From a virus (Duplodnaviria > Heunggongvirae > Uroviricota > Caudoviricetes), in the IMG/VR virus record IMGVR_UViG_2778261667_000012, positions 1-37,406 of that record: a stretch of 37,406 nt of DNA, one strand, 5' to 3'. Shown piece after piece: positions 6,235 to 35,603 of this stretch. Numbering within the stretch: the first letter of the stretch is position 1; each line of letters opens with the position of its first letter. The notes below the pieces were generated by a model. That model was not told the DNA's origin and searched no databases. It saw nothing but the letters and a program-made list of their open reading frames with translations. The position numbers and the translations under genes were made by a program.

Positions 6235-6248
6235 GAGAGCAAATCACA

Positions 6249-6800: not shown

Positions 6801-6816
6801 GTAACCACTATGCACA

Positions 6817-7051: not shown

Positions 7052-7120
7052 TCTCACCACCCCGAGCTTGGAACCTCTGGATGGTGAGTTTTCAAAACTG
7101 ACTAACAGAGAGGCCACATC

Positions 7121-7351: not shown

Positions 7352-7423
7352 TTCCTGTTCCGGGCCTTTCCTGCACCTTGCGGCGGGAGGCCTTCGCACA
7401 TCTGTAACAAGAGGATTGCCGCA

Positions 7424-7789: not shown

Positions 7790-7795
7790 ATCAGT

Positions 7796-12699: not shown

Positions 12700-12960
12700 C
12701 TACGACCCCGTCTGCAACAATTCCAGCGCCATCTGTTTTTCTTCCGGACGCATCCGCTCAATCAACAGCTTTAACACACCATTCTCCAGCCCGCTGGGCA
12801 CCAGTGTGTGCGAGTAGGTCAGATTCATCACCCAGGTATGTCCGCACTCGAGACGGGTGCAACGGTAATACACATCAGCAAACTGATCGGTTTTCCAGGC
12901 TGTTTTCTCAATCACTGCATGTGCACCGCAGCAATGACACCGCGCCTTCTGTCTGCGCAT
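12700..12960 (-). CDS. ogr: Ogr/Delta-family zinc-finger late-gene activator (start taken at the internal Met)
   Basis: …CHCCGAHAV…YRCTRLECGHTW… has the Cys4 pattern and size (about 86 aa) of P2 Ogr-type activators. Here it lies downstream of the portal gene rather than near int. Confidence 0.65.
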   Translation of the reverse strand: MRRQKARCHCCGAHAVIEKTAWKTDQFADVYYRCTRLECGHTWVMNLTYSHTLVPSGLENGVLKLLIERMRPEEKQMALELLQTGS

Positions 12961-13025
12961 TTTCCACCTCCCGGAACAGCGTTTTACTGCCGCCGATTTT
13001 ACCCGCTCTTTCCCCATACCGCACA

Positions 13026-14060: not shown

Positions 14061-15840
14061 CTGACAGGATCCATGTTGATTTGCGCTTGTGCTTATAGTT
14101 CAGGGGTTCATTACTTGCGGCATGAGCGATGGCAAAGAAGATGTCAGCGTGCCCGGTTTCTTCGCTACGTTCGGCGGTGAAAGTGACTTTATTGCCACTG
14201 TTGGTGGATTCCTGACGAATGGCCAGGAACGATGCCGGAATGTCCGTGGCTTCCTCATCCCACTCAATACGGTTGGCGTAAATCAGATCCAGCATCTTCA
14301 TCACCAGGCGGTTTTTGGATTCCACGCTGTAATGAATGGCCACTGTTTCACGGCGGGCAAATCCCTGAACCAGCTCAAAGACACCGTAGCCAAGACCGGT
14401 GACATCAATGCCGATAAACGTCATGTTATAGCGTGCCTTAATGCTGCGGATACGCTCTGCCATAAACTGGAATGACATGCTGCGCCAGTGGTGTTTTTCC
14501 AGCACGCGGAATCGTTCTGCCGCAACCAGCGGCGGTGCCAGCACAACAAATGTGGCGTTATCGCCGGAGCGCGCAGGGTCAAAGCCGCCCCACACCTCAC
14601 GGTTACCAAACGGCATGGGCTCTTCCGGGTGAAAATCCTCCCACGTACTGACATCAACACCACAACGCACAAGATCATCGAATTTAAAGACGCTCTCTTT
14701 GTCATCCACAAACACACACATAAACAGCATATTGAACGCTGTTTCGTTGTATCGCTCGCGCAGCTCGTTGATATCAGCAAGGTTAAAGCCGCCGGCAATG
14801 GCATCTTCCAGCGTAACCACATAGCGCCACTGACCATCCGGACATTCACGCCCGCCATCGCGCAGCTCATCAAAGGATGGAAACTCAACCCCTTTTCGTT
14901 TCGGATCGCCTTTGCGCCATTCATCGCCAGACCAGAACGGGTAACCCTGGTGTGTTTTGGATGACGGCGTGGAGAAATAGGTAATGCGCCAGTGTTTATG
15001 GGTGGCCATCCCTGATGCCACTTCATTGAGACGGCGAAAACCGGGGATCCACAGGTATTCATCAATATACAGGTGGCCGCTGTTTGACTGCGCTGTGTTA
15101 CTGTTGGTCGCCAGAAAATACAGTTCAGCCAGGTTGCTTAACTTAACCGGATTGCCTTTAATAGGAATGCCAAACTCTGTTTGTGCAATTTTTACAATAT
15201 AAGTACGGAACACTTCGGCCTGACGTTTTGATGCCGATAAAAATATCTGTGTGTCGCCGGTTAATACCGCATCTTCAAACGCCTCAAACGCGAAGTAATA
15301 CGTCGCCCCAATCTGGCGGGATTTAAGCAGATTGCGTACACGGCGGAATTTGTTTTCACGCAGGCGCAACTGATAAGCAAACAGTTTCTTCGTAAACGGC
15401 TCAAAACTTTCAGCAGTCAGTCCGGAAACGTCATTAGCTTTACGGGGGCGCTCTTTCTTGCCTGCACCTTTTTCTCCGCGTTCTTCTTTTCCATAACGGC
15501 CAGGCTGGGGAATGTCCACTCCCATTCGCGCAATCTCAGCCATTCGTTCCGTGTGCTTGTTTCTGACCGACATCAGTTTGACGTGATGACCAATCAGGCG
15601 ATCGAGCTCATCGTGTTCTTCCTGGGTCTTATGGTCACGTTCCGCCAGTACAGCGAGACGCCGGGCGATAACATCTTCCACGCCTTCCGTATTGAGCTGC
15701 GTGTACCACTCAAACTTTGTCGCCCAGTAATAAACAATTCGCGGGCTGTTCAGTCCGAGTTTCTTTTGTATTTCTTTTGGTGTGTGCCTTTTCAGATAGA
15801 GCGATTTTGCAGCAGCAATTACCTCATCAGAATACGCCAT
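14053..15840 (-). CDS. Terminase ATPase/large subunit (P2 gpP-like)
   Basis: 595-aa ORF, divergent from the scaffold gene as in P2; size and order match P2 P. Confidence 0.85.
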   Translation of the reverse strand: MAYSDEVIAAAKSLYLKRHTPKEIQKKLGLNSPRIVYYWATKFEWYTQLNTEGVEDVIARRLAVLAERDHKTQEEHDELDRLIGHHVKLMSVRNKHTERMAEIARMGVDIPQPGRYGKEERGEKGAGKKERPRKANDVSGLTAESFEPFTKKLFAYQLRLRENKFRRVRNLLKSRQIGATYYFAFEAFEDAVLTGDTQIFLSASKRQAEVFRTYIVKIAQTEFGIPIKGNPVKLSNLAELYFLATNSNTAQSNSGHLYIDEYLWIPGFRRLNEVASGMATHKHWRITYFSTPSSKTHQGYPFWSGDEWRKGDPKRKGVEFPSFDELRDGGRECPDGQWRYVVTLEDAIAGGFNLADINELRERYNETAFNMLFMCVFVDDKESVFKFDDLVRCGVDVSTWEDFHPEEPMPFGNREVWGGFDPARSGDNATFVVLAPPLVAAERFRVLEKHHWRSMSFQFMAERIRSIKARYNMTFIGIDVTGLGYGVFELVQGFARRETVAIHYSVESKNRLVMKMLDLIYANRIEWDEEATDIPASFLAIRQESTNSGNKVTFTAERSEETGHADIFFAIAHAASNEPLNYKHKRKSTWILSDE

Positions 15841-23222: not shown

Positions 23223-23410
23223 AAAGCCATCTGGGAGCCATTGATCGCAATGACCTTACCCGGATGCTGATTCTGCGCCGCCACTGGCTGCCCGGCGAGG
23301 ATGACTCGCCGCAGTCACTGGCTGCCGCCGTCTGGCTGGATAACCACTACTGGGAAAATATGAGCATCGCCGTCAATAACGGCATTATCCGTGCTTTTAA
23401 GGGATCGTAA
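22929..23410 (+). CDS. Frameshift-extended tail chaperone (E+E'-like) via -1 slip at A_AAA_AAA (23213-23219)
   Basis: The -1 frame is open from the slip site to TAA at 23408-23410 (I traced it codon by codon); its stop overlaps the tape measure ATG by 1 nt. Confidence 0.5.
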
Positions 23411-25584
23411 TGTCACAACAGCGCCTTGAATTACTTCTTGAACTGACAGACCGCCTGACAAGGCCGTTGCGTGCAGCCGGGCGACAGGTTCAGGGATTTG
23501 CTGCAACAAGTCGGGGAGCCTTTCGGGACATTGCTACCGGAGGCGCTGCGCTCTGGGGAGTGGGTGCAGCCATTCAGGGGGCACTGATGCCAGCCATTGA
23601 AATGGACAGGGCGCTCGGTGAGGTGAAATCACTGGGCGTCGCAGAGTCCGGATTGCGTAAACTCAGCCGCGCCGCCGTTGATTTCACTATGGAATACGGC
23701 GGGGCTGCGCAGGATTTTGTGCGTGCGTCATACGACATCCAGTCAGCCATTGCCGGGTTAACTGACGATGAGCTGTCCCGCTTCACCACCGCATCAGCAA
23801 CGGTGGCAGCAGCAACCAAATCCAGCAGCCAGACCATTACCGCCTACATGGGCACCATGTACGGCATCTTTAAAGACCAGGCTGATGCCATGGGAAAAAG
23901 CAAATGGGTGGAGCAGGTCGCCGGGCAAACCGCCACCGCCGTGCAAATGTTTAAAACAACCGGCGATAACATGTCAGCGGCGTTCACCACGCTGGGTGCC
24001 AGTGCAAAAGCGGCCGGTATTGATGCGGCTGAACAGTTCGCCGTGCTGGGACAACTACAGGCCACCATGAGTGGCAGCGAGGCAGGGACGAAATACAAAG
24101 CATTTCTTGCCGCAGTAGGCAGCGCCCAGAAAAAGCTGGGGCTTAATTTCGTGAATAAAGACGGCACGATGAAAAGTGTTGTCGAGATCATGAAACTTAT
24201 CAGGGGCAAATTTGGTGATCTGTCAAAAGTGGCTGATTCCGATTTGCTGAAAAGCGCCTTTGGCTCCGATGAAGCTGTGGCCATGATTAAATTACTCAAT
24301 GCGGACATTGGCGGACTTGAAAAGAATATCGCCACGCTGGGCAATATCAAAGGTATGGATAAGGCTGTCGAAATGGCACAAGCCATGGCCGATCCATGGG
24401 AACAGGCCGCTGCAATTATTAACGGCATTCGCATCGAAATTGGCACGCAGTTGTTGCCTGTTCTGTACCCGTTTATCCAGAAAAGCAACGAAGGCGGCAA
24501 ATCCTTTGTTGCCTGGTTACGTCTGTATCCAAACATCACGCGCGCAATTGGTTTACTGGCGGGGACTTTTCTTAGCCTCGCAACCGTTGGCGCTCTCAGC
24601 AATATCATCATGGGACTGTTCAGCTTTGTAACAAAAGGGCTGATTGCCCCCGTAACAGGCTTAATAAAGCTTCTCAGGTTAAGCGCATTGCGAAATACAC
24701 TGGCCGCTGCTGCAACAGGGGCTTATGCCGCTGCACAACAATATCTGAACAGGGTCATGCTGGTTTCAATGCTGACAGGACGCGGCTTTCTTACCACCAT
24801 GCTGATGATGAGCGGGCCCATTCTGCTTATTGGTGCAGCCATTGCAGCAGTTGTTGCTCTTGTCTGGAAATTCTGGGAACCCATCAAAGCGTTTTTCAGC
24901 GGATTCATTCAGGGGTTCAGCGATGCATGGAAGACTATTTCACTTGGCTCTCCCATTCTGGCCGATATCGGCGCTGTTTTTGGTTTTGTATGGGATGCCA
25001 TCAAAACAGCATTTAACTGGCTGATGAATTTACTCACACCGGTAGAACTGACGGGCGAAGCGTTCGGACGCGCCAGCGATGCCGGTGCGTCTTTTGGCCG
25101 TATCGTTGCCACAGCAATCAACTGGATCCTGACGCCCACTGAAATCATGCTCGGACTGTTATCAAAAGTGTGGCAGGCCCTGCTCATTATTCTGCAGGGG
25201 TATAAGGATATCTGGAACAGCCTGGATATTACTCACCCCCTAGATTCACTGAAAAATCTGGCTTCCGGGATCCTGGCTATTTTCAGCAACCTCTGGGAAC
25301 TGGTGAAACAGTCCTTCAGTGATTCATGGGGCTGGATTGTGGACAAACTCAACATGATCCCCGGCGTTAACATCGGCACATCAGAAAGCACAGGAAGTGG
25401 CGAAGGCTCCGTATTAACCGGCGGTAAAGCCATCAGCGCGGGGCCGGGTGGCATTGCGGCAGAAATGCAGAACAACAGCGAAAACCAGACCACCATCGAC
25501 AACTCCCGTCGTGTGGTCAACGTCAATGTGCAGGATCCATCCCCTGCCCGTCTTAACGAGTGGATGGAGCTGCATGCATACTGA
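23410..25584 (+). CDS. Tail tape measure protein
   Basis: 724 aa, Ala/Gly-rich and helical, with a C-terminal hydrophobic region; follows the chaperone frameshift pair. Confidence 0.85.
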   Translation: MSQQRLELLLELTDRLTRPLRAAGRQVQGFAATSRGAFRDIATGGAALWGVGAAIQGALMPAIEMDRALGEVKSLGVAESGLRKLSRAAVDFTMEYGGAAQDFVRASYDIQSAIAGLTDDELSRFTTASATVAAATKSSSQTITAYMGTMYGIFKDQADAMGKSKWVEQVAGQTATAVQMFKTTGDNMSAAFTTLGASAKAAGIDAAEQFAVLGQLQATMSGSEAGTKYKAFLAAVGSAQKKLGLNFVNKDGTMKSVVEIMKLIRGKFGDLSKVADSDLLKSAFGSDEAVAMIKLLNADIGGLEKNIATLGNIKGMDKAVEMAQAMADPWEQAAAIINGIRIEIGTQLLPVLYPFIQKSNEGGKSFVAWLRLYPNITRAIGLLAGTFLSLATVGALSNIIMGLFSFVTKGLIAPVTGLIKLLRLSALRNTLAAAATGAYAAAQQYLNRVMLVSMLTGRGFLTTMLMMSGPILLIGAAIAAVVALVWKFWEPIKAFFSGFIQGFSDAWKTISLGSPILADIGAVFGFVWDAIKTAFNWLMNLLTPVELTGEAFGRASDAGASFGRIVATAINWILTPTEIMLGLLSKVWQALLIILQGYKDIWNSLDITHPLDSLKNLASGILAIFSNLWELVKQSFSDSWGWIVDKLNMIPGVNIGTSESTGSGEGSVLTGGKAISAGPGGIAAEMQNNSENQTTIDNSRRVVNVNVQDPSPARLNEWMELHAY

Positions 25585-25924
25585 TAAAACGCTTTACATT
25601 GATTTGCTCATCACCGGCCGCAATCTCACGCTGAACAGCGCCAGTGAGCCGGTGTTATGCAACAACAGGGAAAGTATTGCCCAGGACTGCCAGCACGCCA
25701 TCATTGAGAGCGGACTGGCAACGCGCCTGCTGGCTGAAAAAAGCCCGACGCTTCGTGCCGACATCATGATGCAGATGACACTGCTGATTGAAGATGATGA
25801 GCGTATTACGCCTGGCACGGTCAGTGTGACAGAAGAAACCCCGCTTTCTGGTCGCCTGCTGATTAGCGCCCACACCGAAGATTTTTTTGAACCCCTGACT
25901 TTTACGGTATCTCTTGATGATTAA
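25574..25924 (+). CDS. Small baseplate protein (gpW/gp25-like?); start at internal ATG
   Basis: 116-aa product with a GGAG RBS; located between the tape measure and the J-like gene. Family assignment is tentative. Confidence 0.4.
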   Translation: MHTDKTLYIDLLITGRNLTLNSASEPVLCNNRESIAQDCQHAIIESGLATRLLAEKSPTLRADIMMQMTLLIEDDERITPGTVSVTEETPLSGRLLISAHTEDFFEPLTFTVSLDD

Positions 25925-27101
25925 CGGCAAACCTACTGCAGATTACGAGCGCATTCTGGCTGATAATGGCATGCCGGTAACCGAAGAACAGGCTCGCGCT
26001 GAATTTGAAGCCATTGTCAAAGACGAAGGGCTTATCACCAACACTTCCCGCATGTCGCCGTTCTGGCGACTGATTACAGCTATCACCACAAAACCCGTGA
26101 TGTGGCTGAAAGATGCGCTGGTTAATGTGGTGATGAAAAACCTGTTTCTGGCTGATGCCAGCGGTGTATTCGTTGATGTTTTTGCCTGGGCGGTAAACCT
26201 GCAACGCAAGGCCGCCACGCACGCAGCCGGCGAGATTCGTTTCACCAAAAACGACATTGATCGCGCAGTTACCGTGTCGGCCGGTACGCAGATTCAGACA
26301 GAACGCATTAACGGCGTGATTTATACGCTGACCGTTGTCAGGGATACCGTTATTCCGGCAGGAACACTCAGCATGAACATCGATGTTTCTGCGGAACAGG
26401 CCGGAGCCGGCTTTAACCTTGCGCCGGGATATTACCGCATCCTTCCGGTGGCGATTGATGGTATTGCCGGCGTTGAGAACGATGAAAACTGGCTGACCAC
26501 ACCGGGTGCCAACGAAGAAAGCGATGACGAGTTGCGTGATCGTGTTCGCAATCAGTTTAATCTTGCCGGCGCTTATCACACCGATGCAGTTTACCGGGGA
26601 TTAATTGCCGGCGTTGCCGGCATCAGTGCCGACCGCATCTATTTTCTGCATGACGCACCACGCGGCCCCGGCACAGCAAATGCTTACATTCTGCTGGATA
26701 CCGGCATCGCATCCGAACCGTTCGTTGATGCAGTAAACGCATTCATTAACGATGAAGGTCATCACGGACACGGTGATGATCTGCGCTGTTTTTCCATGCC
26801 TGAAACACGCCACACCCTGACCGTGACACTCTGGTTATATGCAACGCTGAACCTCAGCGATGAGGAAATTCAGACGTTATTGCGCAATGTGGAAAATCTG
26901 GTTCGCTGTGCATTTCGAGAAAACAGCGATTATGACGTTCAGAAAACATGGCCGTATAGCCGTTTCAGCATGTCCAGACTGGGCGAAGAGATCCACCAGG
27001 TATTTCCACAGGTGGAGTCGGTTACATTTTCTCTTCCGGATATTCTCAGTGATCTGGCTGTTCCTCGTCTGGAATCCCTTACTGTGGAGGTGAGCGCGTG
27101 A
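25914..27101 (+). CDS. Baseplate J-like protein
   Basis: 395 aa immediately upstream of the gpI-like gene; fits the baseplate J family by size and context. Confidence 0.7.
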   Translation: MMINGKPTADYERILADNGMPVTEEQARAEFEAIVKDEGLITNTSRMSPFWRLITAITTKPVMWLKDALVNVVMKNLFLADASGVFVDVFAWAVNLQRKAATHAAGEIRFTKNDIDRAVTVSAGTQIQTERINGVIYTLTVVRDTVIPAGTLSMNIDVSAEQAGAGFNLAPGYYRILPVAIDGIAGVENDENWLTTPGANEESDDELRDRVRNQFNLAGAYHTDAVYRGLIAGVAGISADRIYFLHDAPRGPGTANAYILLDTGIASEPFVDAVNAFINDEGHHGHGDDLRCFSMPETRHTLTVTLWLYATLNLSDEEIQTLLRNVENLVRCAFRENSDYDVQKTWPYSRFSMSRLGEEIHQVFPQVESVTFSLPDILSDLAVPRLESLTVEVSA

Positions 27102-27733
27102 AACTTCCGGAGATCCCTGAATTCCCGCTCCCCACCTGGATGAATAAAGGCGAGCCGTTAACGCTGGCACATTCATCGCATCGCTACTGGGAAAAGGTAT
27201 ACAGCTGGCTGACGTGGCCACTACAGCAGATTGATGTCGACACCTGCGCAGAACCTTTACTTAACCTGCTGGCTTATCAGCGCAATATCACCCGATTTAA
27301 AGGAGAGCCGGTTTCGTTATTTCGCTTAAGGGTGAAACACGCGTTTATTAACGCTCAGGACTCTGGCGAACGCGCCGGCTTCGAACGCATCTTTAAGCGT
27401 CTTGGCGTGGGAGACGTTAAAACACTGGAACGGCAACTGCAGCATGACTGGGACGTTATTTTACTGCGCATTAATGACACCCAGTTAAGTGAAAACAACG
27501 CGCTGATGATGCAGCTCGTGCGCCAGTATGGTCGTACCTGCAGGCGCTATTTCTTTCAGGTAATCAATACAACCACTGCCCGGCTGACAGCCGGCACATT
27601 TGATGGCCATTACAGGTATCACACAGCAGAAGCAACGGTGAGAAAGGACACCATCTGGTTAACCGCTTCGCTACAGGCAGGACATTACGGCCTGTCCGTG
27701 GAGCATTACACATTACAGGCAGACGAAGCATGA
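27098..27733 (+). CDS. Tail protein I-like (baseplate wedge)
   Basis: …VDTCAEPLLNLLAYQRNITRF… resembles the conserved gpI N-terminal motif as recalled. Confidence 0.65.
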   Translation: MKLPEIPEFPLPTWMNKGEPLTLAHSSHRYWEKVYSWLTWPLQQIDVDTCAEPLLNLLAYQRNITRFKGEPVSLFRLRVKHAFINAQDSGERAGFERIFKRLGVGDVKTLERQLQHDWDVILLRINDTQLSENNALMMQLVRQYGRTCRRYFFQVINTTTARLTAGTFDGHYRYHTAEATVRKDTIWLTASLQAGHYGLSVEHYTLQADEA

Positions 27734-29556
27734 GCACGATTATTACTGAACAGTACGAACACTGGTGTGCGAATCAGCTCATCAGTGGAAAACCTGCGCG
27801 CCCGGATACATTTGTTTTTGCATATATTCCGGGACAGGATGAATCCGCAGAGATCCCCCGCGATGAGATACTCCCTGATGAATCCATGATTCAGTATCGT
27901 GCGCCGGTCACCCAGTACGGCCTCCTGTCGCCGAACGCGACCGCGTTTTCCATCATTCTGGACACGACAGTCGGCGACTTCGAATACAACTGGATCGGTC
28001 TGCTGAACGAAGAAAGCGGCGTGCTCTGCATGATTGCGCACACACCTCGTCAGCAAAAAATTAAAACAGCGAACGGCGTGCAGGGAAACAACCTGATCCG
28101 CACATTTTCCATGGAGTTTGACGGCGCAGCCGCAGCAATGCATATCGATGTCAGTGCTGATGTCTGGCAGATTGATTTCACTGCACGCCTTGCAGGAATG
28201 GATGAGGCCCGCCGGCTGCTGGCGTTTGATCACTACGGTGAAGCCGCTTTTCTGGGGGATGGTTTTCAGGTCAGCTATCAGGATGGTACCGCTACTGTTG
28301 CCGCCGGCGTGGGTTATGTGGGAGGTCTGCGCGTCAGTCTGCGCGAACCTTACAGCCTGCCGGCTGCGGTCGGGGATACCATTTGGATTGATGCAAGCTG
28401 GCAGGGATTTGTTACCGGCGAATGGAATACCGTTTTTACGTTCTGCGCCCGCCAGGAACATGCGTCCTATACAGACGGTAACGGCTTCCGACACTTTGTC
28501 GCGCCACTTGCGAAACTGACATCAGAAGGCTTACAGGATTTACGTCCACAGACGCCCGATGAAGAACAAAGCAATGCACTGGCAGAGCACGAAAAATCCC
28601 GCCGTCATCCGGACGCAACACTGAAGGAGAAAGGCTTTGCGCAGTACAGCAACTCCACCGACAGCGACGCAGAAGACCGCGCCGCCACATCAAAGGCAGT
28701 AAAAGCCGCAATGGATAAGGCAAAAGGCGCTGTTGAGCGTGGCGGCGACACCATGACCGGGGAACTGAAAATCCGTGGTGTTAATGCGCTGAGGATTTTC
28801 AACGAAGCCTTTGGTCTGATTTTTCGTCGTTCGGAAGAGTGCCTGCACCTTATCCCTACCAGTGAAGGTCAGGGCGAGAATGGCGATATTGGTCCACTTC
28901 GGCCGTTCACTATTAATCTGCGGACGGGTGAAATATCCATGTCGCATAAAGTGTCTGTTGGCGGCGGTTCTCAGGTCAATGGTGCGCTGGGTATCGGCGT
29001 TCAGAACGCGCTGGGCGGAAACTCAATTGCTTTCGGGGATAACGATACAGGTATAAAACAAAACGGCGACGGCATTCTGGATGTTTATGCGAATGGACAG
29101 CATGTATTTCGTTTCCAGAATGGTGTGGCGATAGCGTTAAAAAATATTCAGGCCGGAAATGCTAAAAAATTCACGTTATCCAGCGCCAACAACTCCACGA
29201 AAAACGCAACGTTTAATTTATGGGGTAATTCATCCCGACCTGTAGTTGCAGAGCTTGGTGATGATTCCGGCTGGCATTTTTACAGTCAGAGGAATACGGA
29301 TAACAGTATAACGTTCGCTGTAAACGGGCAGATGGTTCCATCAAACTACGGAAACTTTGATGCCCGCTATCAGACCAAAACAGGCGGTGTGCAGGATGTG
29401 CGTCTGGGAAGCGCCATTGGTATTGGGCGTGGCGGGAATGCACCATCAGGTCACCTTATCAGCGGTCTTGATGGTGGTGAAAGTATGGACTGGGCCAATG
29501 CCCGCCCGGTGCAGGTTCTGATTAATGGCGTCTGGCGGAATGTAGCGAGTTTGTAA
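27730..29556 (+). CDS. Tail fibre protein 1
   Basis: 608 aa; the central …EHEKSRRHPDATLKEKGFAQYSNSTDS…TSKAVKAAMD… matches the conserved P2 gpH-type fibre segment as recalled. Confidence 0.8.
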   Translation: MSTIITEQYEHWCANQLISGKPARPDTFVFAYIPGQDESAEIPRDEILPDESMIQYRAPVTQYGLLSPNATAFSIILDTTVGDFEYNWIGLLNEESGVLCMIAHTPRQQKIKTANGVQGNNLIRTFSMEFDGAAAAMHIDVSADVWQIDFTARLAGMDEARRLLAFDHYGEAAFLGDGFQVSYQDGTATVAAGVGYVGGLRVSLREPYSLPAAVGDTIWIDASWQGFVTGEWNTVFTFCARQEHASYTDGNGFRHFVAPLAKLTSEGLQDLRPQTPDEEQSNALAEHEKSRRHPDATLKEKGFAQYSNSTDSDAEDRAATSKAVKAAMDKAKGAVERGGDTMTGELKIRGVNALRIFNEAFGLIFRRSEECLHLIPTSEGQGENGDIGPLRPFTINLRTGEISMSHKVSVGGGSQVNGALGIGVQNALGGNSIAFGDNDTGIKQNGDGILDVYANGQHVFRFQNGVAIALKNIQAGNAKKFTLSSANNSTKNATFNLWGNSSRPVVAELGDDSGWHFYSQRNTDNSITFAVNGQMVPSNYGNFDARYQTKTGGVQDVRLGSAIGIGRGGNAPSGHLISGLDGGESMDWANARPVQVLINGVWRNVASL

Positions 29557-29558
29557 TC

Positions 29559-30113
29559 ATGATGCACTTAAAGAATCTTACGGTACAAAACCCTAAAACA
29601 ATTGAGCAATACCAGCTGGCGCGGCAGCATAAATTTTTATTGTGGCTGTTCTCAGATGATGGCCAGGAATGGCACGAAGCCCAGGAAAAATTTCAACCAG
29701 ACACTCTGAAAGTTATTTATGTCGAAACTGGCGAAGTGGTCTGGGTCGGAAAAGACATCACCTCAATCTGCCCGGAAAATAAAAGTGTGATTGAGTTGCC
29801 GGATATTACCGCTAATCGTCGCATTGAGGCGTCGGGATACTGGTTTTACCGCGACGATAAATTTGTCTTCGACTACAAACTTAAAGCGGAAGATGAACGC
29901 GATGCCCTGTTACAACGGGTCAGCATCATGACCAGCGAATGGGAAAAGGACCTGCTGCTGGGATTAATCAGCGACGAAGACAGGGAGAAATTGAAAGCCT
30001 GCCGTATTTATACAAAAACGTTACGGGAGATGACATTCAGCCAGGTTACAGATAAAGCATCGTATGCCGCGATTGTATGGCCAGAATTACCGCAGAACAT
30101 TAGCGAGAATTAA
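29559..30113 (+). CDS. Tail fibre assembly chaperone 1
   Basis: 184 aa immediately after fibre 1, with a C-terminal …AIVWPELP… Tfa-type motif. Confidence 0.7.
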   Translation: MMHLKNLTVQNPKTIEQYQLARQHKFLLWLFSDDGQEWHEAQEKFQPDTLKVIYVETGEVVWVGKDITSICPENKSVIELPDITANRRIEASGYWFYRDDKFVFDYKLKAEDERDALLQRVSIMTSEWEKDLLLGLISDEDREKLKACRIYTKTLREMTFSQVTDKASYAAIVWPELPQNISEN

Positions 30114-30119
30114 GAAGTA

Positions 30120-32057
30120 ATGAGCGCACTGTTGACGAAAGCATTTGAAAAGTGGGTTGCTGAATGCACAGCCAGTAATTTACCTGCGCGCCCTGACGCT
30201 ATTATTTTTGCCCTGATGGAGCGGGAACCAACGCGCGAAGATAATACCGTTCCGGAAGAAAAAATCACATATGCTGTGAATGAACTGACCTACGGCCAGT
30301 TAAGCCCGAACAATATTGTGTGTAGCGCGGTTGTTCCTGATGACTGTGCATTCAGTTATGACTGGATTTGTCTCATCCATCAGGCCAGCGGAACACTATG
30401 CGGCGTAATAAAAACGCCTGTTCGACAAAAAGTGACAGGCGAGTCACTTATTCGTAATTTCACGATTATATACAGTGGCATTGCTCAGGCTGCGCAAATT
30501 ACCGTTCCTCCACAGAGCTGGCAGGTAGATCTTTTCCCTGAAATAAACAAAAAAGCGCCACTGGACAGCCCGGCGTTCACCGGCACGCCAACCACACCAA
30601 CTCCGCCAGACGATGCGGTCGGGCTGGAGATGGCGAACGCAGCGTTTGTTCGCAAACTGCTCGCCGCACTGGTTGACTCATCACCGGAAGCCCTGGACAC
30701 ACTGAACGAACTGGCAGCGGCGCTGGGCAATGACCCGAACTTTTCGACGACGGTCATTAACGCGCTGGCGGGTAAACAACCGCTGAACGATTTGCTGACG
30801 GCAATCAGTGAACTGACGAAACGGGCAGATAATCTTCTGTACTTTAATCAGGACGGGAATGTTTCTCTCTCTCCGCTGTCAGAAAAAGCCCGCGCATTAC
30901 TGGCACTGGACACACCTGAAGCCATGCGCACGGAACTTGAACTGAAAGCGGCTGCAACGATGGAGTCCCAGAGCAATATCCGCGACCGCACACCAGGCAG
31001 GCTGGCGCTGCCGGGGGCATTTGGATACGGAATGACAGAGCACGAGGGGATGGTGCTCGGCATTACAAATCTTGATGAGCTTGCGTTGATATGCATGAAC
31101 ACAGAACCAGGTCGATATTACACATCATCAATGTCATCAGGTGATTTAACTGGTGTAGTCGAATTTATCTGGCTGGACAACTGGCAGAATGACAAAACCA
31201 GCCAGACAGCAACAAAACTTATTCTGTTTTACGGAAGAGACGGACGTATTCTTTCCAGCGTTCGCGGCTCTGACTACGGAGCCCCTGTTGTATGGAGAGA
31301 TCTTACCCCATTAACTGGCAACACAACTGTAAAAGACGCGCAATCGGATATCCGGGATCGTACACCTGGCAGGCTGGCGCTGTCCGGCATGTATGGATTC
31401 GGCCAGGCATTTACCAGCACCGAAGCCCTGGCATTTAACGGGCAGGCCGATTTTGCTGAATGGCTGAAAGAGGCCACCCCGGGGCGTTATGCGGTCAGTA
31501 TTGCGGACTCTTCCACACTACTGGCGGGCACCACGAAATTTAACGGCATCATTGATGTGATGTGGTCACCCTTTGATAACGACGAGTCAGACACAACGCG
31601 CAAATTCAAAACGCTGCTGTGTTTTAACCAGTATTACGAAGGTGAGCACAGTATTCATCGCCTGACTTACCGCTGGAGTGGAAACAACTGGAATGCAACA
31701 GTAAGCCCCATTATTTACGACGGCGATTCGCTGGCGTTCCTGCTGTCCAGGACAGCTGGCTCAGGCTCATATTTCAAATACCCGGCAGTGGGTGTTCCGG
31801 TGCTGGCTGTTTATCGCGGAACAACTTCCGGGGATAAAGAAATCAAAATTGGCCTGGGTGATGTGGTGCAGGGGTCACTACTGGGCGGAGTTAATCTTTC
31901 GTGCACAATATCTTCTGCGGGGGCTGGCTCCTACGGTTCCACACCGAGTGCAGGAGCTACAGGGTACACTTTTCCGGGGCGTTATATGGCGTTATCCGGG
32001 GTCAGGGACTCTTACGGAACAAGCGGTCGTATCTGCCTGTTTGTGCGCATCGAGTAA
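30120..32057 (+). CDS. Tail fibre protein 2 (paralogous N-terminus, different distal part)
   Basis: 645 aa; the N-terminal about 150 aa is homologous to fibre 1 (…LPARPD…, …L(I/C)RNF(T/S)…). Contains an internal repeat …IRDRTPGRLAL… twice. Confidence 0.7.
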   Translation: MSALLTKAFEKWVAECTASNLPARPDAIIFALMEREPTREDNTVPEEKITYAVNELTYGQLSPNNIVCSAVVPDDCAFSYDWICLIHQASGTLCGVIKTPVRQKVTGESLIRNFTIIYSGIAQAAQITVPPQSWQVDLFPEINKKAPLDSPAFTGTPTTPTPPDDAVGLEMANAAFVRKLLAALVDSSPEALDTLNELAAALGNDPNFSTTVINALAGKQPLNDLLTAISELTKRADNLLYFNQDGNVSLSPLSEKARALLALDTPEAMRTELELKAAATMESQSNIRDRTPGRLALPGAFGYGMTEHEGMVLGITNLDELALICMNTEPGRYYTSSMSSGDLTGVVEFIWLDNWQNDKTSQTATKLILFYGRDGRILSSVRGSDYGAPVVWRDLTPLTGNTTVKDAQSDIRDRTPGRLALSGMYGFGQAFTSTEALAFNGQADFAEWLKEATPGRYAVSIADSSTLLAGTTKFNGIIDVMWSPFDNDESDTTRKFKTLLCFNQYYEGEHSIHRLTYRWSGNNWNATVSPIIYDGDSLAFLLSRTAGSGSYFKYPAVGVPVLAVYRGTTSGDKEIKIGLGDVVQGSLLGGVNLSCTISSAGAGSYGSTPSAGATGYTFPGRYMALSGVRDSYGTSGRICLFVRIE

Positions 32058-32070
32058 CGGGGAATAAAAC

Positions 32071-32652
32071 ATGAAAATCAGAGCAGTAAAAGGCATCAGA
32101 AACGCCCATTATCTCGAAAATGGTGCGGTTGACTGCGAGGTGTTATTTGAAGGTGAAACGGAATTCGTCCCGTATACCGCCATGCAGGACGATAGCGCCC
32201 CGACAGGCCAGCGCATCTGGGAAGAGTTACAGAGCGGCAAATGGGGAGAAATAACCCCGTTCACCGTCACGCCGGAACTTATCGCCGCGGCGAAGGATGC
32301 CAAAAAGCGGGAAATAGAGGTGTGGCGCACAGAACAGGAGGCGCAGCCGTTCACGTTCGAATGGAACGGTCGTAGCTGGAATGCTGGCCCCAGCTCACTG
32401 GCCCGTATCTATCCGGTGGTAATGGCATCAAAATCCGACACAGCGCGGGACGTTATGACATGGGGTGATGCCGATAATCAGCAAGTGAAGATGTCGATGA
32501 CAGAGCTTGAGGAGCTGGCTACAGCTATGGCGCAGGCGCAGGTTAACCGCAATGATGAAATTTATCGACGTCAGCGACAGATGAAGGACGTGCTGGATGG
32601 CCTGAATAATCTTGCCGACATCCGCGCTTTTCAGAGTGGAGAGTCAGAATGA
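32071..32652 (+). CDS. Putative tail fibre assembly/chaperone protein 2
   Basis: 193 aa immediately after fibre 2; weak family resemblance, so the call is mainly positional. Confidence 0.35.
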   Translation: MKIRAVKGIRNAHYLENGAVDCEVLFEGETEFVPYTAMQDDSAPTGQRIWEELQSGKWGEITPFTVTPELIAAAKDAKKREIEVWRTEQEAQPFTFEWNGRSWNAGPSSLARIYPVVMASKSDTARDVMTWGDADNQQVKMSMTELEELATAMAQAQVNRNDEIYRRQRQMKDVLDGLNNLADIRAFQSGESE

Positions 32653-33362
32653 AATGGGAAAAGGCAATTCTGCGTCCGTCAGCCATGCACATTAAATGCT
32701 CTGTGGTTTGCCTTCATCCATGGTCAGAAAATACCGGAAACATCAAACCATCGGGGCGTTATCTCAGCCCCGAAAATGCTGTATCTGCACTTTTACCCTA
32801 TCTGAAAGAAAGCACAGAAAAAGACATTGTGGCGCTGTTATTTTGCGCCCCTTCTGCTGGCGAGTTTTTATCACTCGCCAGGCAATTTTCAGGCGCATTT
32901 CCGTTGCCGGAGGTGGGACGAATGTCCCGCATGATCTCCAGCCAGCTTTCACTGGCCATCAGCAGAATGCAAATCCCCGCCAGACCGGCAACATCACTTC
33001 CGGAACCGATAATGCTGTCGACACAGACCACTCGCAGCATGTCGCTGGCAGCAACCATTGCACAGGCAGCCACTCCTGCCGCCACATCACCGGAAACATT
33101 GTCATCATCGCTGCATCAGTTCATGAATGCGAGAGATAAAGCCTTACAGGAAATCGCTGATCAGCAGGCCGCACTCCGGCAAAAATTTTGCCCGGTGTGG
33201 CGCTTTTGCTACAAGGGAGCTCTTAGCCAGGCTGCAGTGCTGATACAAAAAAACATCCCACACCCAGAGTGGGTTTTTACAGCTGTGATGCTGTTCGTCG
33301 GCGATAATCTCTCATCACTAAGGGAAGCACTACATGACCCAGATGATTGTCCTTGCGCTTGA
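32649..33362 (+). CDS. Hypothetical protein (possible tail/baseplate component)
   Basis: 237 aa, ATGA-coupled to the upstream gene; no family recognised. Confidence 0.4.
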   Translation: MKWEKAILRPSAMHIKCSVVCLHPWSENTGNIKPSGRYLSPENAVSALLPYLKESTEKDIVALLFCAPSAGEFLSLARQFSGAFPLPEVGRMSRMISSQLSLAISRMQIPARPATSLPEPIMLSTQTTRSMSLAATIAQAATPAATSPETLSSSLHQFMNARDKALQEIADQQAALRQKFCPVWRFCYKGALSQAAVLIQKNIPHPEWVFTAVMLFVGDNLSSLREALHDPDDCPCA

Positions 33363-33909
33363 CGGGGAAGCCATTCTGCTGCGCAACATCACCGTCAGCG
33401 CCACCATGCAACTACCGGACAAAGATATGTCCGGACAGTCAACCAGCACCACGAGCGCCCAGCAGGGAAACAAGGCTAAAGAGCTGCGCGTGTCGGGGGT
33501 TATTGATTTTAACGATGAAGCTATTCTGACCCGTATTTTTCAGCTTGCGGAGGCAACAGAAAGCAACGGTGCTAAAAAAACATATCGCATTGCTAACGCT
33601 ACCGCGAAGGCAATCAATATGCGACAGGGGGTATTTTCTGGTGGCATTGATGCCACGGAACAACAGGGAAAAATGCACTGGCAGGTCACCTTTACTCTCA
33701 GGGAAAAATTAAGCGTGCCAGAGAAAGCATCAGCACGTAGCGGTTCACAAAAAACCATCGCCAGACAGCAGACCCAGAATGGCAGCGAACAGGCACCAGA
33801 CAAAGGCATGAATACGCAAAGTTCGTTCTGGAAAAAAATCAATGATGCCGTTGGCTCTGGTCTGGATGCTGTTGGCATTGGGAGCGTGAAAGAGGAAGGG
33901 AAAACATGA
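33334..33909 (+). CDS. Hypothetical protein (possible tail/baseplate component)
   Basis: 191 aa with an AAGGGAAG RBS; overlaps the upstream gene by 29 nt. Confidence 0.4.
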   Translation: MTQMIVLALDGEAILLRNITVSATMQLPDKDMSGQSTSTTSAQQGNKAKELRVSGVIDFNDEAILTRIFQLAEATESNGAKKTYRIANATAKAINMRQGVFSGGIDATEQQGKMHWQVTFTLREKLSVPEKASARSGSQKTIARQQTQNGSEQAPDKGMNTQSSFWKKINDAVGSGLDAVGIGSVKEEGKT

Positions 33910-35603
33910 AATTGATACAACGCTGCATGATTAATGGCGAACGGGTGGAAATTGCCGATATAAACCTTGTTCTTACCCTGAATGCTGCCGGTCGTGGCTT
34001 CATTTCTGTTAACAATCTGTCACCCGAACACAGCCTTGCCGGCGCAATGGTACAAATTGATCTCGGCCGTGACGGTGAAGCATGGCGCTATTTCTCCGGC
34101 TACATTGAGCGCGATCAACCTGCTGAAAATGGCTCACGTCGCCTTTTTATCCGTGAAGCAGCTGCTGTGCTGGATTTTGATTTCCCTTGCTCCATGCAAC
34201 ACCCGACGTTGCGGGGGGTACTCGATAATCTGGGGCGACAAAGCGGTATCGTTTTTATCACTCCGGATGCGGATTATGCCAGTATACCAACTCCCTACAT
34301 CACCCACAGCGGCAGCGGAGCACAACTGCTCAGCCAACTGGGGCGAGCATTCAGTATCAACGATTACGTCTGGCACCCTATGCCGGACGGTTCTGTATTT
34401 GTGGGAAGCGCAGCTGATTCACGATTTGCCAGTATTACAATGCCGGATATTCCGCAACAGTACACACTCGGGCAAAGCGGCGGAAACAGCATCGACATCA
34501 TGTTTATGGAAACTGTGCGACCGGGCGTGAACCTACCGGCCGGGCGCATTACCCGTGTAGCCCTCAACAACGAGAAAATGACCCTGACATGGGAGCGCCT
34601 TACCGCCACGGGTAGCCCTGTTTCCAAATCACCATTACGCAGACAAATGGAAACACAGTTCCCGGAACTGGTCAGCGGTACGCTACATACCCGGCTGGCG
34701 CGCGTCATTGCACCAACGGAGCCCGCCACCCTGGGCGATGTGGCCGACAGTTTCCGCCCACGCTACGCCGTCGATGTGCAGTTGCTTGATGAGAACGGCA
34801 ACGATAAAAGCGATACGCCCGTTTACCCGGCAGTACCGCTCCCCGTCCCCATGGCTGGCAGTGAGGCGGGATGTTTTGCCTACCCGCCGGCAGGCACCAT
34901 CGTGGAAATATCCAACATTGAAGGACGACCGGATAAACCTGTCATCAGGCAAATCTTACCCGCTGGTCATAACCTGCCTGATGTAAAGCCCGGCGAACAA
35001 TTGCAACAACAGCGCGCAGAAGTGTTTCAGCGTGTCACGACTGACGGAAGCTGGCACAGAGAAACCGACCAGCAAATCAGGGAGCATTCAGCCAGGCGAA
35101 CCATTAACAGCGATCAGGAAGAACGCACAACAACAACCAGAACAACAACAGTACAGGCAAACGACATAACCAGCGTTCTGGGAACCAGCAAGCTGATGAC
35201 AGGTCAGACAGAACACATTACTACTGGCCATTATGCGATCGCAGCCGGTGAGCATATCCAGATGGTAGCGCAGGATTTGCTGACTAAACTCAAAGGGGCG
35301 ACATCCACCATCGAGCATAACCTCACCGAAAACGTGGGAGGCCGCAGAACATGCCGGGCGGACGGCGGCCTGGAATTTACCGCCCCGACTGTATTTATTG
35401 GGCGCGGTGGCTCACGGGAAAAATCCGGACTTAATCTGCTGACGTTGTTGATTGATATTCTGGATCTGGTTCAGTTGCTGGCCACACACACTGCAAACCA
35501 CACCCACAGCAACACTGGCGCACCAACAAACAGCAGCGAACTTGCCGCAGACGCCCAACAGGCTACGAGCCTGCGCGAAAAATACGGCGACCTTATCGCC
35601 TAA
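33906..35603 (+). CDS. Putative baseplate hub/central spike protein (gpD/gpV-like fusion?)
   Basis: 565 aa with a beta-helix-like repetitive C-terminal region and a His-rich apex (…THTANHTHSNTGAP…) reminiscent of P2 gpV-type spike tips. Confidence 0.45.
   Translation: MKLIQRCMINGERVEIADINLVLTLNAAGRGFISVNNLSPEHSLAGAMVQIDLGRDGEAWRYFSGYIERDQPAENGSRRLFIREAAAVLDFDFPCSMQHPTLRGVLDNLGRQSGIVFITPDADYASIPTPYITHSGSGAQLLSQLGRAFSINDYVWHPMPDGSVFVGSAADSRFASITMPDIPQQYTLGQSGGNSIDIMFMETVRPGVNLPAGRITRVALNNEKMTLTWERLTATGSPVSKSPLRRQMETQFPELVSGTLHTRLARVIAPTEPATLGDVADSFRPRYAVDVQLLDENGNDKSDTPVYPAVPLPVPMAGSEAGCFAYPPAGTIVEISNIEGRPDKPVIRQILPAGHNLPDVKPGEQLQQQRAEVFQRVTTDGSWHRETDQQIREHSARRTINSDQEERTTTTRTTTVQANDITSVLGTSKLMTGQTEHITTGHYAIAAGEHIQMVAQDLLTKLKGATSTIEHNLTENVGGRRTCRADGGLEFTAPTVFIGRGGSREKSGLNLLTLLIDILDLVQLLATHTANHTHSNTGAPTNSSELAADAQQATSLREKYGDLIA

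What the first reader, a model, noticed from the sequence alone, without database searches (positions are those of the whole stretch)
27730..32652. Two co-oriented tail-fibre plus chaperone cassettes with paralogous N-termini
Fibre 1 and fibre 2 share a homologous N-terminal about 150-aa baseplate-attachment region but have unrelated distal parts, each followed by its own chaperone-like gene. Both are on the same strand and no invertase gene or inverted-repeat crossover sites were seen, so this is not a Mu/P1-type invertible host-range switch. Fibre 2 also carries an internal tandem duplication (…IRDRTPGRLAL… at about 30976 and about 31345). This suggests a dual-receptor or modular host-range system.
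Basis: seen in the sequence. Interest (0 to 1): 0.42.

Follow-up and report, generated by a model that had tools for sequence, protein, structure and literature searches.

The report
Prophage with two tail-fibre slots
A P2/HP1-type prophage of E. coli encodes two complete tail fibres side by side, each with a related baseplate anchor and its own helper protein; this layout is fixed across its lineage, has no DNA-inversion switch, and probably lets one virus particle carry two host-recognition proteins.

Summary
Fibre 1 (27730-29556) and fibre 2 (30120-32057) share only a PF12571 (P2 gpH / HP1 orf31-type) N-terminal anchor: 37% identity, E 1e-24. Their distal parts are unrelated.

Fibre 1 has a Mu-S-like tip followed by a Caudo_TAP chaperone. 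Fibre 2 has a lambdoid-Stf-like tip followed by a DUF4376 chaperone. Fibre 2 contains two diverged copies of a ~125-aa domain (34% identity, E 3e-14).

The whole prophage has no invertase, no hix/gix-like site and no flanking inverted repeats.

The tandem layout is present in every related Escherichia locus with enough sequence, and in Salmonella and Yersinia relatives. It is absent from HP1, SI7, ESSI-2 and YenM_324, from 61 anchor-bearing sequenced phages, and from 46 more distant IMG/VR loci.

Slot-2 anchors form their own clade with two diagnostic deletions. They are under purifying selection (dN/dS ~0.1) and are exchanged together with their cassette. The two distal modules reassort independently.

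Most likely this is a constitutive two-receptor-binding-protein module created by duplication of the fibre's N-terminal half. Where fibre 2 docks on the baseplate, and whether both fibres are in the virion, remain untested. I rate it a new variant of a known kind, of moderate interest.

The parts
25914..27101 (+). Baseplate wedge protein, gpJ-like
   Evidence: Pfam Baseplate_J, E 4e-31; PHROG 6, baseplate wedge subunit.
27098..27733 (+). Baseplate/tail protein, gpI-like. Its stop overlaps the fibre 1 start.
   Evidence: Pfam Tail_P2_I, E 7e-5; PHROG 1228. Its C-terminus is about 20 aa longer than in single-fibre Edwardsiella relatives.
27730..28179 (+). Fibre 1 anchor (aa 1-150), the canonical HP1 orf31 / P2 gpH-type baseplate attachment domain
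   Evidence: PF12571, E 2e-29. It is 91-100% conserved and has the same dS as J and I, so it travels with the backbone.
28180..28722 (+). Fibre 1 conserved 'mid' domain (aa 151-331), ending at a recurrent recombination breakpoint
   Evidence: 91-100% identity across Escherichia-type loci. Breakpoints at 28722-28724.
28723..29556 (+). Fibre 1 variable distal part with a Mu gpS-like receptor-binding tip
   Evidence: Phage_fiber_2 repeat at aa 297-334. PDB 5yvq (Mu tail fibre protein S), E 2.5e-18, at aa 520-607. Only 33-100% identity among relatives. About 90% nt identity to the distal part of phiP27 L54.
29559..30113 (+). Tail fibre assembly chaperone 1 (lambda Tfa / P2 gpG / Mu U family)
   Evidence: Pfam Caudo_TAP, E 3e-20; PHROG 136, E 7e-53.
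30120..30533 (+). Fibre 2 anchor (aa 1-138), a slot-2 subfamily of PF12571
   Evidence: PF12571, E 2e-11. 37% identical to the fibre 1 anchor. It forms its own clade and has 5-aa and 6-aa deletions shared by all slot-2 anchors. dN/dS about 0.1. Breakpoint at about 30523-30552.
30534..30956 (+). Fibre 2 shaft, P2 gpH-like
   Evidence: tblastn 55% identity to P2 gpH at aa 138-276. PDB 9d93 'tail collar fibers gp4', E 2e-11, at aa 127-251.
30957..31334 (+). Fibre 2 repeated domain, copy 1 (aa ~280-405), an extra module absent from one-copy homologues
   Evidence: BLASTP copy 1 vs copy 2: 34% identity, E 3e-14. Absent from lambdoid Stf-type and 519-523-aa PF12571 homologues.
31335..31709 (+). Fibre 2 repeated domain, copy 2 (aa ~406-530)
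   Evidence: Shared at 73-97% identity with lambdoid side-tail-fibre proteins. No Pfam or PDB relative was found.
31710..32057 (+). Fibre 2 C-terminal tip (aa ~531-645, ending ...LFVRIE)
   Evidence: PHROG 2636 at aa 401-645, E 7e-103. This tip type co-occurs with a DUF4376 gene in all loci examined.
32071..32652 (+). DUF4376-type tail fibre chaperone for fibre 2. Its stop overlaps the start of the next gene.
   Evidence: PF14301, E 2e-15; PHROG 1141, E 3e-86; 74% identical to phiP27 L57. The family has experimental chaperone evidence in Alteromonas phage V22 and Campylobacter CJIE1.
32649..33362 (+). HP1 orf33-like protein of unknown role, downstream boundary of the variable module
   Evidence: PHROG 1677 and 31292. 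Present in single- and dual-fibre relatives alike. Only its N-terminal 30-60 aa vary with the slot-2 cassette.
33334..33909 (+). HP1 ORF34-type baseplate complex protein
   Evidence: PF25759, E 1e-53.
33906..35603 (+). HP1 orf35-like baseplate protein (possible hub/spike)
   Evidence: PHROG 2258, baseplate protein, E 4e-232. 42% identical to HP1 orf35. Only sub-threshold VgrG hits.

Best explanation
This is the receptor-binding module of a temperate myovirus of the P2 family (Peduoviridae) with an HP1-type tail, resident as a prophage in Escherichia. The ancestral HP1-type order is J, I, fibre, chaperone, orf33, orf34, orf35. Here a second fibre slot has been added between the chaperone and orf33.

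Origin (inferred). The second slot arose by duplication of the N-terminal half of a canonical fibre. Its anchor then diverged into a distinct subfamily.

Expression (inferred from gene packing). Both fibre genes and both chaperone genes sit in one tightly packed late operon, so both should be made in every lytic cycle.

Assembly (inferred). Each fibre is folded from its C-terminal tip by its own chaperone: Caudo_TAP for the Mu-S-like tip of fibre 1, DUF4376 for the Stf-like tip of fibre 2. Each then plugs into the baseplate through its PF12571 anchor. The particle would therefore carry two receptor-binding specificities at once, with no DNA switch.

Evolution (shown). Each slot is refitted separately by recombination. 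In slot 1 the anchor and mid domain stay with the backbone and only the tip and chaperone are swapped. In slot 2 the whole cassette, anchor included, is swapped.

Not resolved. Whether fibre 2 uses its own socket (giving 6+6 fibres, the sub-model I favour slightly) or shares the six canonical sockets.
For: Identity of the parts.

Operon packing. The I and fibre 1 genes overlap by 4 nt. Gaps of 2, 6 and 13 nt separate the next genes. The DUF4376 gene overlaps orf33. No internal promoter or convincing terminator was found.

No switch.

Ancestral single cassette. HP1, SI7, ESSI-2 and YenM_324 all have J-I-H-G-orf33-34-35. Edwardsiella relatives and L033 also have one cassette. All 61 sequenced phages with this anchor have exactly one copy. 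46 more distant IMG/VR loci with enough flank have one anchor.

Dual layout fixed in the lineage.
- Every Escherichia-type locus with enough sequence has it.
- So do 15 IMG/VR loci, E. albertii (L004), Salmonella enterica, Yersinia kristensenii and the more distant L029.
- Among complete E. coli genomes, 46 of 5426 carry I plus the fibre-1 anchor and 49 carry a slot-2 anchor.

Single origin and duplication. Slot-2 anchors form one clade with two shared deletions. They share the LPARPD motif with the fibre-1 clade. The L029 slot-2 fibre aligns with fibre 1 over aa 1-275, E 1e-32, that is anchor plus mid domain.

Functional constraint. The slot-2 anchor has dN/dS of 0.09-0.13 with dS of 1.3-2.1, even where J, I and the fibre-1 anchor have dS of about 0.05.

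Modularity. Recurrent breakpoints and independent assortment of tip types.

Chaperone-tip pairing. A DUF4376 gene is present with every '...F(V/I)RI(E/A)'-type tip and absent with other tips. Experimental precedents are PMC7289586 and PMC7882524.

Precedent for two fibre sets on a simple baseplate: Sf14 (PMC11821841).
Against: There is no direct evidence that either fibre is in a virion, or that this prophage is inducible.

The docking site of the PF12571 anchor in HP1-type baseplates has no solved homologue detectable by sequence. 'Two sockets' versus 'one shared socket' therefore cannot be decided.

Slot-2 anchor alleles 26% apart work with essentially identical J, I, orf34 and orf35. No co-evolving partner was identified. 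The variation in orf33 is confined to its first 30-60 residues next to the swapped cassette, which looks like hitch-hiking.

The anchor tree is an unbootstrapped NJ tree, and slot 2 sits on a long branch.

The surveys are biased toward close relatives: the best 80 of 498 IMG/VR hits, and one genome per species.
Confidence: 0.62

Rival explanations
1. Shared-socket model. The two anchors compete for the same six gpI/gpJ sockets, so each virion carries a stochastic mixture of fibre 1 and fibre 2, or the burst is a mixed population. This gives bet-hedging without a genetic switch.
For: Both anchors belong to the same Pfam family. Their first ~30 residues are similar, including the lineage-specific LPARPD motif. 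Very different slot-2 anchor alleles function with identical J and I, which fits a conserved generic interface. No extra baseplate gene accompanies slot 2.
Against: The anchors are only 37% identical. Slot-2 anchors carry two fixed deletions and have stayed a separate clade without homogenisation. A slot-2-type anchor was never seen as the sole fibre of any phage or prophage examined. That is unexpected if it fits the canonical socket. gpI has a longer C-terminus in dual-fibre lineages (weak evidence).
Confidence: 0.22
2. Branched-fibre model. Fibre 2 does not touch the baseplate but docks on fibre 1, for example on its conserved mid domain, as secondary receptor-binding proteins do in KP32-, CBA120- or DT57C-type phages.
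For: The mid domain of fibre 1 (aa 151-331) is unusually conserved with the backbone. The slot-2 anchor exists as a free-standing 200-285-aa adaptor-like protein in Yersinia and E. albertii.
Against: The same conserved 1-300 region is typical of single-fibre HP1-type fibres (PHROG matches), so its conservation does not need fibre 2 to explain it. The slot-2 anchor is a homologue of a baseplate anchor, not of any known fibre-to-fibre adaptor.
Confidence: 0.08
3. One cassette is not a working virion fibre. It would be a decaying remnant, a spare-parts depot for recombination, or a lysogen-expressed gene.
For: There is no expression or virion data. Slot-2 contents are extremely heterogeneous, including split genes in L004 and L113.
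Against: ORFs are intact in every lineage member examined. The slot-2 anchor has dN/dS of about 0.1. The cassette sits between essential baseplate genes with overlapping or near-abutting junctions. A cognate chaperone is retained whenever the tip type needs one. No lineage member lacking slot 2 was found.
Confidence: 0.05
4. Alternative expression through a non-invertase mechanism, such as attenuation, translational control or a diversity-generating retroelement, so that only one fibre is made per cycle.
For: None specific. It cannot be excluded from sequence alone.
Against: No terminator or promoter pattern lies between the cassettes. No inverted or long direct DNA repeats were found. No reverse transcriptase or invertase appears in the annotation of the near-identical prophage.
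Confidence: 0.03

Closest known systems
HP1 orf31/orf32 and P2 gpH/gpG fibre-plus-chaperone cassette (Peduoviridae)
   Same: Same operon context (J, I, fibre, chaperone, then orf33-35 in HP1-type phages). Same PF12571 N-terminal anchor and Caudo_TAP chaperone. Same mosaic distal parts.
   Different: Those phages have one cassette. All 61 anchor-bearing phage genomes have a single anchor copy. Here a second, diverged anchor subfamily heads a second cassette.
Mu G segment / P1 C segment (S-U / S'-U' invertible host-range switch)
   Same: Two alternative receptor-binding tips, each with a cognate chaperone. The tip of fibre 1 is homologous to Mu S (PDB 5yvq).
   Different: No invertase, no crossover sites, no opposed orientation, and no shared constant exon. 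Both are complete genes on one strand, so they would be expressed simultaneously rather than alternately.
Stx2e phage phiP27, genes L54-L57
   Same: Syntenic block of Mu-S-like tip, Tfa, Stf-like fibre and DUF4376 protein. Pieces are about 90% identical in DNA to window 28700-32576.
   Different: phiP27 has a Mu-type baseplate. Its two fibres have unrelated N-termini: L56 carries PF08400, L54 has no PF12571. Its anchors are therefore not paralogous.
Shigella phage Sf14 (Mooglevirus), with two long-tail-fibre sets on a simple Mu-like baseplate
   Same: A contractile-tail phage with a simple baseplate that displays two fibre types at once (PMC11821841).
   Different: A different phage family and different fibre proteins. 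No chaperone genes are reported there, and no paralogous PF12571 anchors.
Short 'a-type' DUF3751 (PF12571) proteins of Rp3 tailocins and phages VP882 / PhiHAP-1
   Same: An anchor-only PF12571 protein followed by separate distal genes (PMC4684702). This resembles the split slot 2 of Yersinia kristensenii and E. albertii.
   Different: As described there, the short protein is the locus's fibre anchor. It is not a second anchor added behind a complete canonical fibre.
DUF4376 tail-fibre chaperones (Alteromonas phage V22 gp27; Campylobacter CJIE1 H-fibre partner)
   Same: A small protein with a C-terminal PF14301 domain, encoded immediately after the fibre gene and needed for fibre function in those systems.
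   Different: Only the domain and the gene position are shared. Function was not tested here.

Membership tests
P2 gpH / HP1 orf31-type tail fibre | N-terminal PF12571 (formerly DUF3751) baseplate-anchor domain | tested here: met
   Fibre 1 E 2e-29; fibre 2 E 2e-11. Both are above the gathering score.
P2 gpH / HP1 orf31-type tail fibre | Gene lies directly downstream of the gpJ/gpI wedge genes | tested here: met
   Met for fibre 1, whose start overlaps the gpI stop. Fibre 2 is displaced behind chaperone 1, a position not seen in HP1, SI7, ESSI-2 or YenM_324.
P2 gpH / HP1 orf31-type tail fibre | Trimeric fibre attached to the baseplate in the virion | not testable with these tools
   No virion data. 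No solved homologue of the anchor or its socket is detectable by sequence.
Caudo_TAP tail fibre assembly protein (lambda Tfa / P2 gpG / Mu U) | PF02413 domain; gene immediately downstream of its fibre | tested here: met
   29559-30113: PF02413, E 3e-20; PHROG 136, E 7e-53. It starts 2 nt after the fibre 1 stop.
DUF4376-type tail fibre chaperone | C-terminal PF14301 domain in a small protein encoded directly after a fibre gene | tested here: met
   32071-32652: PF14301 at aa 73-177, E 2e-15. It starts 13 nt after the fibre 2 stop.
DUF4376-type tail fibre chaperone | Required for folding or function of the cognate fibre | not testable with these tools
   Indirect evidence only: its presence or absence follows the fibre-tip type across loci.
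Mu/P1-type invertible host-range switch | Serine invertase (Gin/Cin/Hin family) gene next to the fibre genes | tested here: not met
   tblastn with Hin/Gin against the whole window: best E 0.2. No invertase is annotated in the 97%-identical prophage.
Mu/P1-type invertible host-range switch | Inverted crossover sites flanking the variable segment, with alternative exons in opposite orientation | tested here: not met
   0 matches to the hix/gix-like pattern. No flanking inverted repeat of 20 nt or more. All four genes are on the + strand.
Multi-receptor-binding-protein phages (two or more RBPs displayed together) | Two or more complete RBP genes co-expressed and co-assembled on one particle | tested here: inconclusive
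   Two complete genes in one operon under purifying selection. Co-assembly was not tested.
Lambdoid side tail fibre (Stf) | PF08400 prophage tail fibre N-terminal domain | tested here: not met
   Fibre 2 shares only its distal 64-73% with Stf-type proteins, at 74-97% identity. Its own N-terminus is PF12571.

The most novel reading that the evidence does not exclude
A minimal P2/HP1-type baseplate in this lineage has gained a second, structurally distinct fibre socket and carries 12 fibres (6+6).

The slot-2 anchor subfamily would then be a portable adaptor that accepts very different cargo:
- classical fibres with DUF4376 chaperones;
- chaperone-less fibres;
- collagen-like fibres;
- split two-protein fibres;
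- enzyme-like heads.

That would be a previously undescribed way of building a dual-specificity contractile particle. It could be transplanted into R-type tailocins.
Probability: 0.35. Interest if true: 0.6.

Novelty: new variant of a known kind. Interest (0 to 1): 0.42.

Why it matters
Host range in P2-family phages and R-type tailocins is normally ascribed to one fibre on six sockets, or to inversion switches. Here a whole prophage lineage instead hard-wires two fibres with paralogous anchors. It occurs in about 1% of complete E. coli genomes, many listed from livestock STEC/ETEC strains, and also in Salmonella and Yersinia.

Three consequences would follow if both fibres are mounted:
- One particle recognises two receptors, which affects host-range prediction from prophage sequence.
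- It raises a concrete structural question: where does a second PF12571 anchor dock on a simple baseplate?
- The slot-2 anchor would be a ready-made handle for engineering dual-specificity phages or pyocin-like particles.

The concept of multi-receptor-binding-protein phages is well established, so this extends known biology rather than overturning it.

Tried and rejected
1. Invertible switch. Rejected: no invertase, no crossover sites, no inverted repeats.

2. Recent tandem duplication in fibre 2. Rejected: the copies are 34% identical in protein and undetectable by Tandem Repeats Finder. One-copy homologues exist.

3. My guess from memory that the repeated domain is a pyocin-knob-like domain. 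Not supported: no Pfam hit, and a profile search of PDB sequences found nothing credible.

4. AlphaFold2 of the distal 377 aa of fibre 2 with a 24-sequence alignment. It gave pLDDT 43, too poor for a fold search, so none was run.

5. orf33 as a co-evolving docking partner of the slot-2 anchor. Not supported: the differences cluster in its first 30-60 residues next to the swapped cassette, and the rest is near-identical even when the anchor differs by 26%.

6. PDB sequence searches with gpI, orf33 and orf35, looking for a solved HP1-type baseplate. Nothing usable.

7. NCBIfam gave no names for the four proteins.

8. A protein-database search with the slot-2 anchor alone returned only 11 short or partial proteins. 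One of them, from Yersinia, was informative.

9. Literature searches for a described dual-fibre P2/HP1-like phage found none. The library covers open-access papers only, so absence is not proof.
Full report
WHAT IS THERE

The window holds a complete P2-family prophage. It has an integrase, a replication endonuclease, an ogr/Delta-like late activator, P2-type portal, terminase and capsid genes, and an HP1-type tail. It is 97% identical over the fibre region to a prophage of E. coli A36 that lies between dmsA and serS.

The late tail operon reads as follows:
- tape measure, 23410-25584
- DUF2590 protein
- gpJ-like wedge, 25914-27101
- gpI-like, 27098-27733
- fibre 1, 27730-29556
- Caudo_TAP chaperone, 29559-30113
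- fibre 2, 30120-32057
- DUF4376 protein, 32071-32652
- orf33-like, 32649-33362
- HP1_ORF34 baseplate protein, 33334-33909
- orf35-like baseplate protein, 33906-35603

Junctions are overlaps or gaps of 2-13 nt. A consensus scan shows no promoter or convincing terminator between the cassettes.

CHECK OF THE OBSERVATION

The two fibres align significantly only over aa 1-150 and 1-138 (37% identity, E 1e-24). Both regions are PF12571, the P2 gpH / HP1 orf31 / R-pyocin fibre anchor (anchor role as cited in PMC7882524).

The distal parts differ:
- Fibre 1 has a Phage_fiber_2 repeat and a tip homologous to Mu tail fibre protein S (PDB 5yvq, E 2.5e-18).
- Fibre 2 has a P2-gpH-like shaft (55% identity at aa 138-276).
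- The distal 64-73% of the fibre 2 segment searched (aa 269-645) is 74-97% identical to lambdoid side-tail-fibre proteins that carry a PF08400 N-terminus.

The two downstream genes are unrelated to each other. One is Caudo_TAP. The other is DUF4376, a domain found in proteins shown experimentally to be needed for fibre function in Alteromonas phage V22 and a Campylobacter CJIE1 prophage.

Fibre 2 contains two copies of a ~125-aa domain:
- They are 34% identical, E 3e-14, with a 372-nt period.
- At DNA level the repeat is invisible to Tandem Repeats Finder.
- Copy 1 is missing from Stf-type homologues and from 519-523-aa PF12571 homologues.
- Related copies occur at other positions in other slot-2 fibres.

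It is therefore an old, mobile domain rather than a recent duplication. Its fold is unknown: no Pfam or PDB relative was found, and the AF2 model was unusable at pLDDT 43.

NO SWITCH

tblastn with Hin and Gin (sequences recalled from memory) found nothing better than E 0.2 in the whole window. A hix/gix-like consensus has no match even with three mismatches. No inverted repeat of 20 nt or more brackets either cassette. The PGAP annotation of the near-identical A36 prophage lists no invertase or reverse transcriptase.

COMPARATIVE EVIDENCE: SINGLE VERSUS DUAL CASSETTE

The sequenced HP1-type Peduoviridae all have J-I-fibre-chaperone-orf33-34-35 with a single cassette. This holds for HP1, Salmonella SI7, Cronobacter ESSI-2 and Yersinia YenM_324.

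A tblastn search with the fibre-2 anchor found 61 phage genomes with a related anchor, each with exactly one copy. The best identity was only 32%.

Loci recovered through gpI show three things:
- Every Escherichia-type relative with enough sequence carries both cassettes in the same order.
- So does a more distant relative, L029, whose gpI is 77% identical.
- Edwardsiella relatives and L033 carry one cassette.

A broader IMG/VR scan with an anchor alignment returned 75 new loci. Fifteen have two anchors. All fifteen belong to this lineage or are the L029 contig. Forty-six more distant loci with adequate flanks have one anchor.

The same dual layout is present next to serS in Salmonella enterica and in Yersinia kristensenii.

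In complete E. coli genomes, gpI plus the fibre-1 anchor occurs in 46 of 5426 and a slot-2 anchor in 49 of 5426. I compared only these counts, not the lists of genomes.

ORIGIN OF SLOT 2

Slot-2 anchors form a single clade in an unbootstrapped NJ tree. They share a 5-aa and a 6-aa deletion relative to all canonical anchors. They share the LPARPD motif with the fibre-1 / Edwardsiella / L033 group, but not with the SI7, ESSI-2 or HP1 group.

The slot-2 fibre of L029 aligns with fibre 1 over aa 1-275 (E 1e-32), which is anchor plus the following 'mid' domain.

This argues that slot 2 arose by duplication of the N-terminal half of a canonical fibre. Escherichia versions have since lost the mid domain.

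SELECTION AND MODULARITY

Against the window, slot-2 anchors of otherwise near-identical prophages show dS of 1.3-2.1 with dN/dS of 0.09-0.13. J, I and the fibre-1 anchor show dS of about 0.03-0.07. The slot-2 anchor is therefore constrained, and it is exchanged as part of its cassette.

The fibre-1 anchor and mid domain stay with the backbone. DNA identity profiles show recurrent breakpoints at about 28724 and 29123 (within fibre 1), 29502, 30523-30552 (end of the slot-2 anchor) and 32653-32691 (start of orf33).

Tip types assort independently:
- The commonest fibre-1 tip is found with at least four slot-2 types.
- The window's slot-2 type is found with two fibre-1 tips.

Slot-2 contents are strikingly diverse:
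- fibres of 522-679 aa followed by a DUF4376 gene;
- chaperone-less proteins of 350, 518, 619 and 842 aa, some with enzyme-like sequence (an impression by eye plus one Pfam hit below threshold);
- a collagen-repeat fibre in L029;
- split versions, with an anchor-only protein of 200 or 285 aa followed by a separate protein of 340 or 352 aa, in Y. kristensenii and E. albertii.

A DUF4376 gene is present exactly where the fibre ends in the '...F(V/I)RI(E/A)' tip type, including phiP27 L56/L57.

HOW IT MOST LIKELY WORKS

Shown:
- two intact fibre genes with paralogous anchors and distinct cognate chaperone-type genes in one operon;
- no inversion machinery;
- lineage-wide retention;
- purifying selection on the second anchor;
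- independent recombinational refitting of each slot.

Inferred:
- both fibres are made in each lytic cycle;
- each is folded by its own chaperone;
- both are mounted through their anchors, giving a particle with two receptor specificities.

The docking geometry is unresolved. I slightly favour a separate socket (6+6 fibres), for three reasons:
- The slot-2 anchors are a fixed, structurally distinct subfamily.
- A slot-2-type anchor was never found as the sole fibre in the collections searched.
- gpI has a longer C-terminus in dual-fibre lineages (weak and phylogenetically confounded).

Sf14 shows that a simple baseplate can carry two fibre sets.

Competition for the same six sockets and piggy-backing on fibre 1 remain possible. 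A search for a co-evolving partner failed, because orf33 varies only at its N-terminal edge.

COMPARISON WITH KNOWN SYSTEMS

This module is built from the parts of a P2/HP1 fibre cassette. It achieves what the Mu G segment achieves, two tips with two chaperones, but by tandem co-expression rather than inversion.

It shares a syntenic, partly ~90%-identical distal block with phiP27 L54-L57. The two phiP27 fibres, however, have unrelated N-termini on a Mu-type baseplate.

Split slot-2 versions recall the short 'a-type' DUF3751 proteins described for Rp3 tailocins and VP882.

I found no description of a P2/HP1-family phage with two PF12571-anchored fibres in the searchable literature. That library is limited to open-access papers.

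VERDICT

It is a lineage-specific variant of a known theme, phages with several receptor-binding proteins, so the conceptual surprise is moderate. The distinct slot-2 anchor subfamily and the unanswered docking question give it some structural and engineering interest.

Noticed in passing
window 6867-7064 (+): Rfam gathering-level matches to isrK (6867-6941) and C4 antisense RNA (6977-7064), side by side in the early region. This looks like a P1/P7-type c4/ant-like immunity element inside a P2-family prophage.
   Followed up: no
window 10695-11654 and the downstream small ORF: In the 97%-identical A36 prophage the corresponding genes are annotated as plasmid segregation protein ParM and a partitioning/stability protein. 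That is unusual for an integrated P2-like prophage.
   Followed up: no
L002 (phiP27, NC_003356) 5679-9299: phiP27 also carries two fibres: L54 with Tfa L55, and L56 with DUF4376 protein L57. This block is syntenic with window 28700-32576. The L56 anchor is PF08400 (lambdoid Stf type) although the baseplate is Mu-type.
   Followed up: partly
L020 6809-8668; L022 13061-15589: Slot-2 proteins of 619 and 842 aa have no downstream chaperone gene. Their distal sequence looks enzyme-like rather than fibrous. This rests on inspection by eye plus a sub-threshold MGH1-like glycoside-hydrolase hit for L022. They may be depolymerase-type receptor-binding proteins.
   Followed up: partly
L113 (Yersinia kristensenii) 8001-10288; L004 (E. 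albertii) 12894-14834: Slot 2 is split into an anchor-only PF12571 protein (200 or 285 aa) and a separate protein of 340 or 352 aa with no Pfam match. In Yersinia a DUF4376 gene follows.
   Followed up: partly
L029 11127-12695: The slot-2 fibre of this more distant relative has a collagen triple-helix repeat (PF01391). It also retains the fibre-1-like mid domain after its anchor.
   Followed up: yes
window 32649-32830 (N-terminus of the orf33-like gene): The first 30-60 codons of orf33 are hypervariable among otherwise near-identical prophages, while the rest is conserved. Either recombination tracts end here or the real start codon lies further downstream.
   Followed up: partly
window 27620-27733 (C-terminus of gpI): gpI of the dual-fibre relatives window, L024 and L029, and of L028 (contig truncated before slot 2, so its fibre number is unknown), has a C-terminus about 20 aa longer than in single-fibre Edwardsiella relatives. 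It is a possible but unproven link to the second fibre.
   Followed up: partly
L001 15304-15447; L113 14089-14238; L116 13314-13454: A Hok/Gef-family toxin gene lies just downstream of the last baseplate gene in the related prophages of E. coli A36, Yersinia and Salmonella. I did not check the equivalent position in the window.
   Followed up: no
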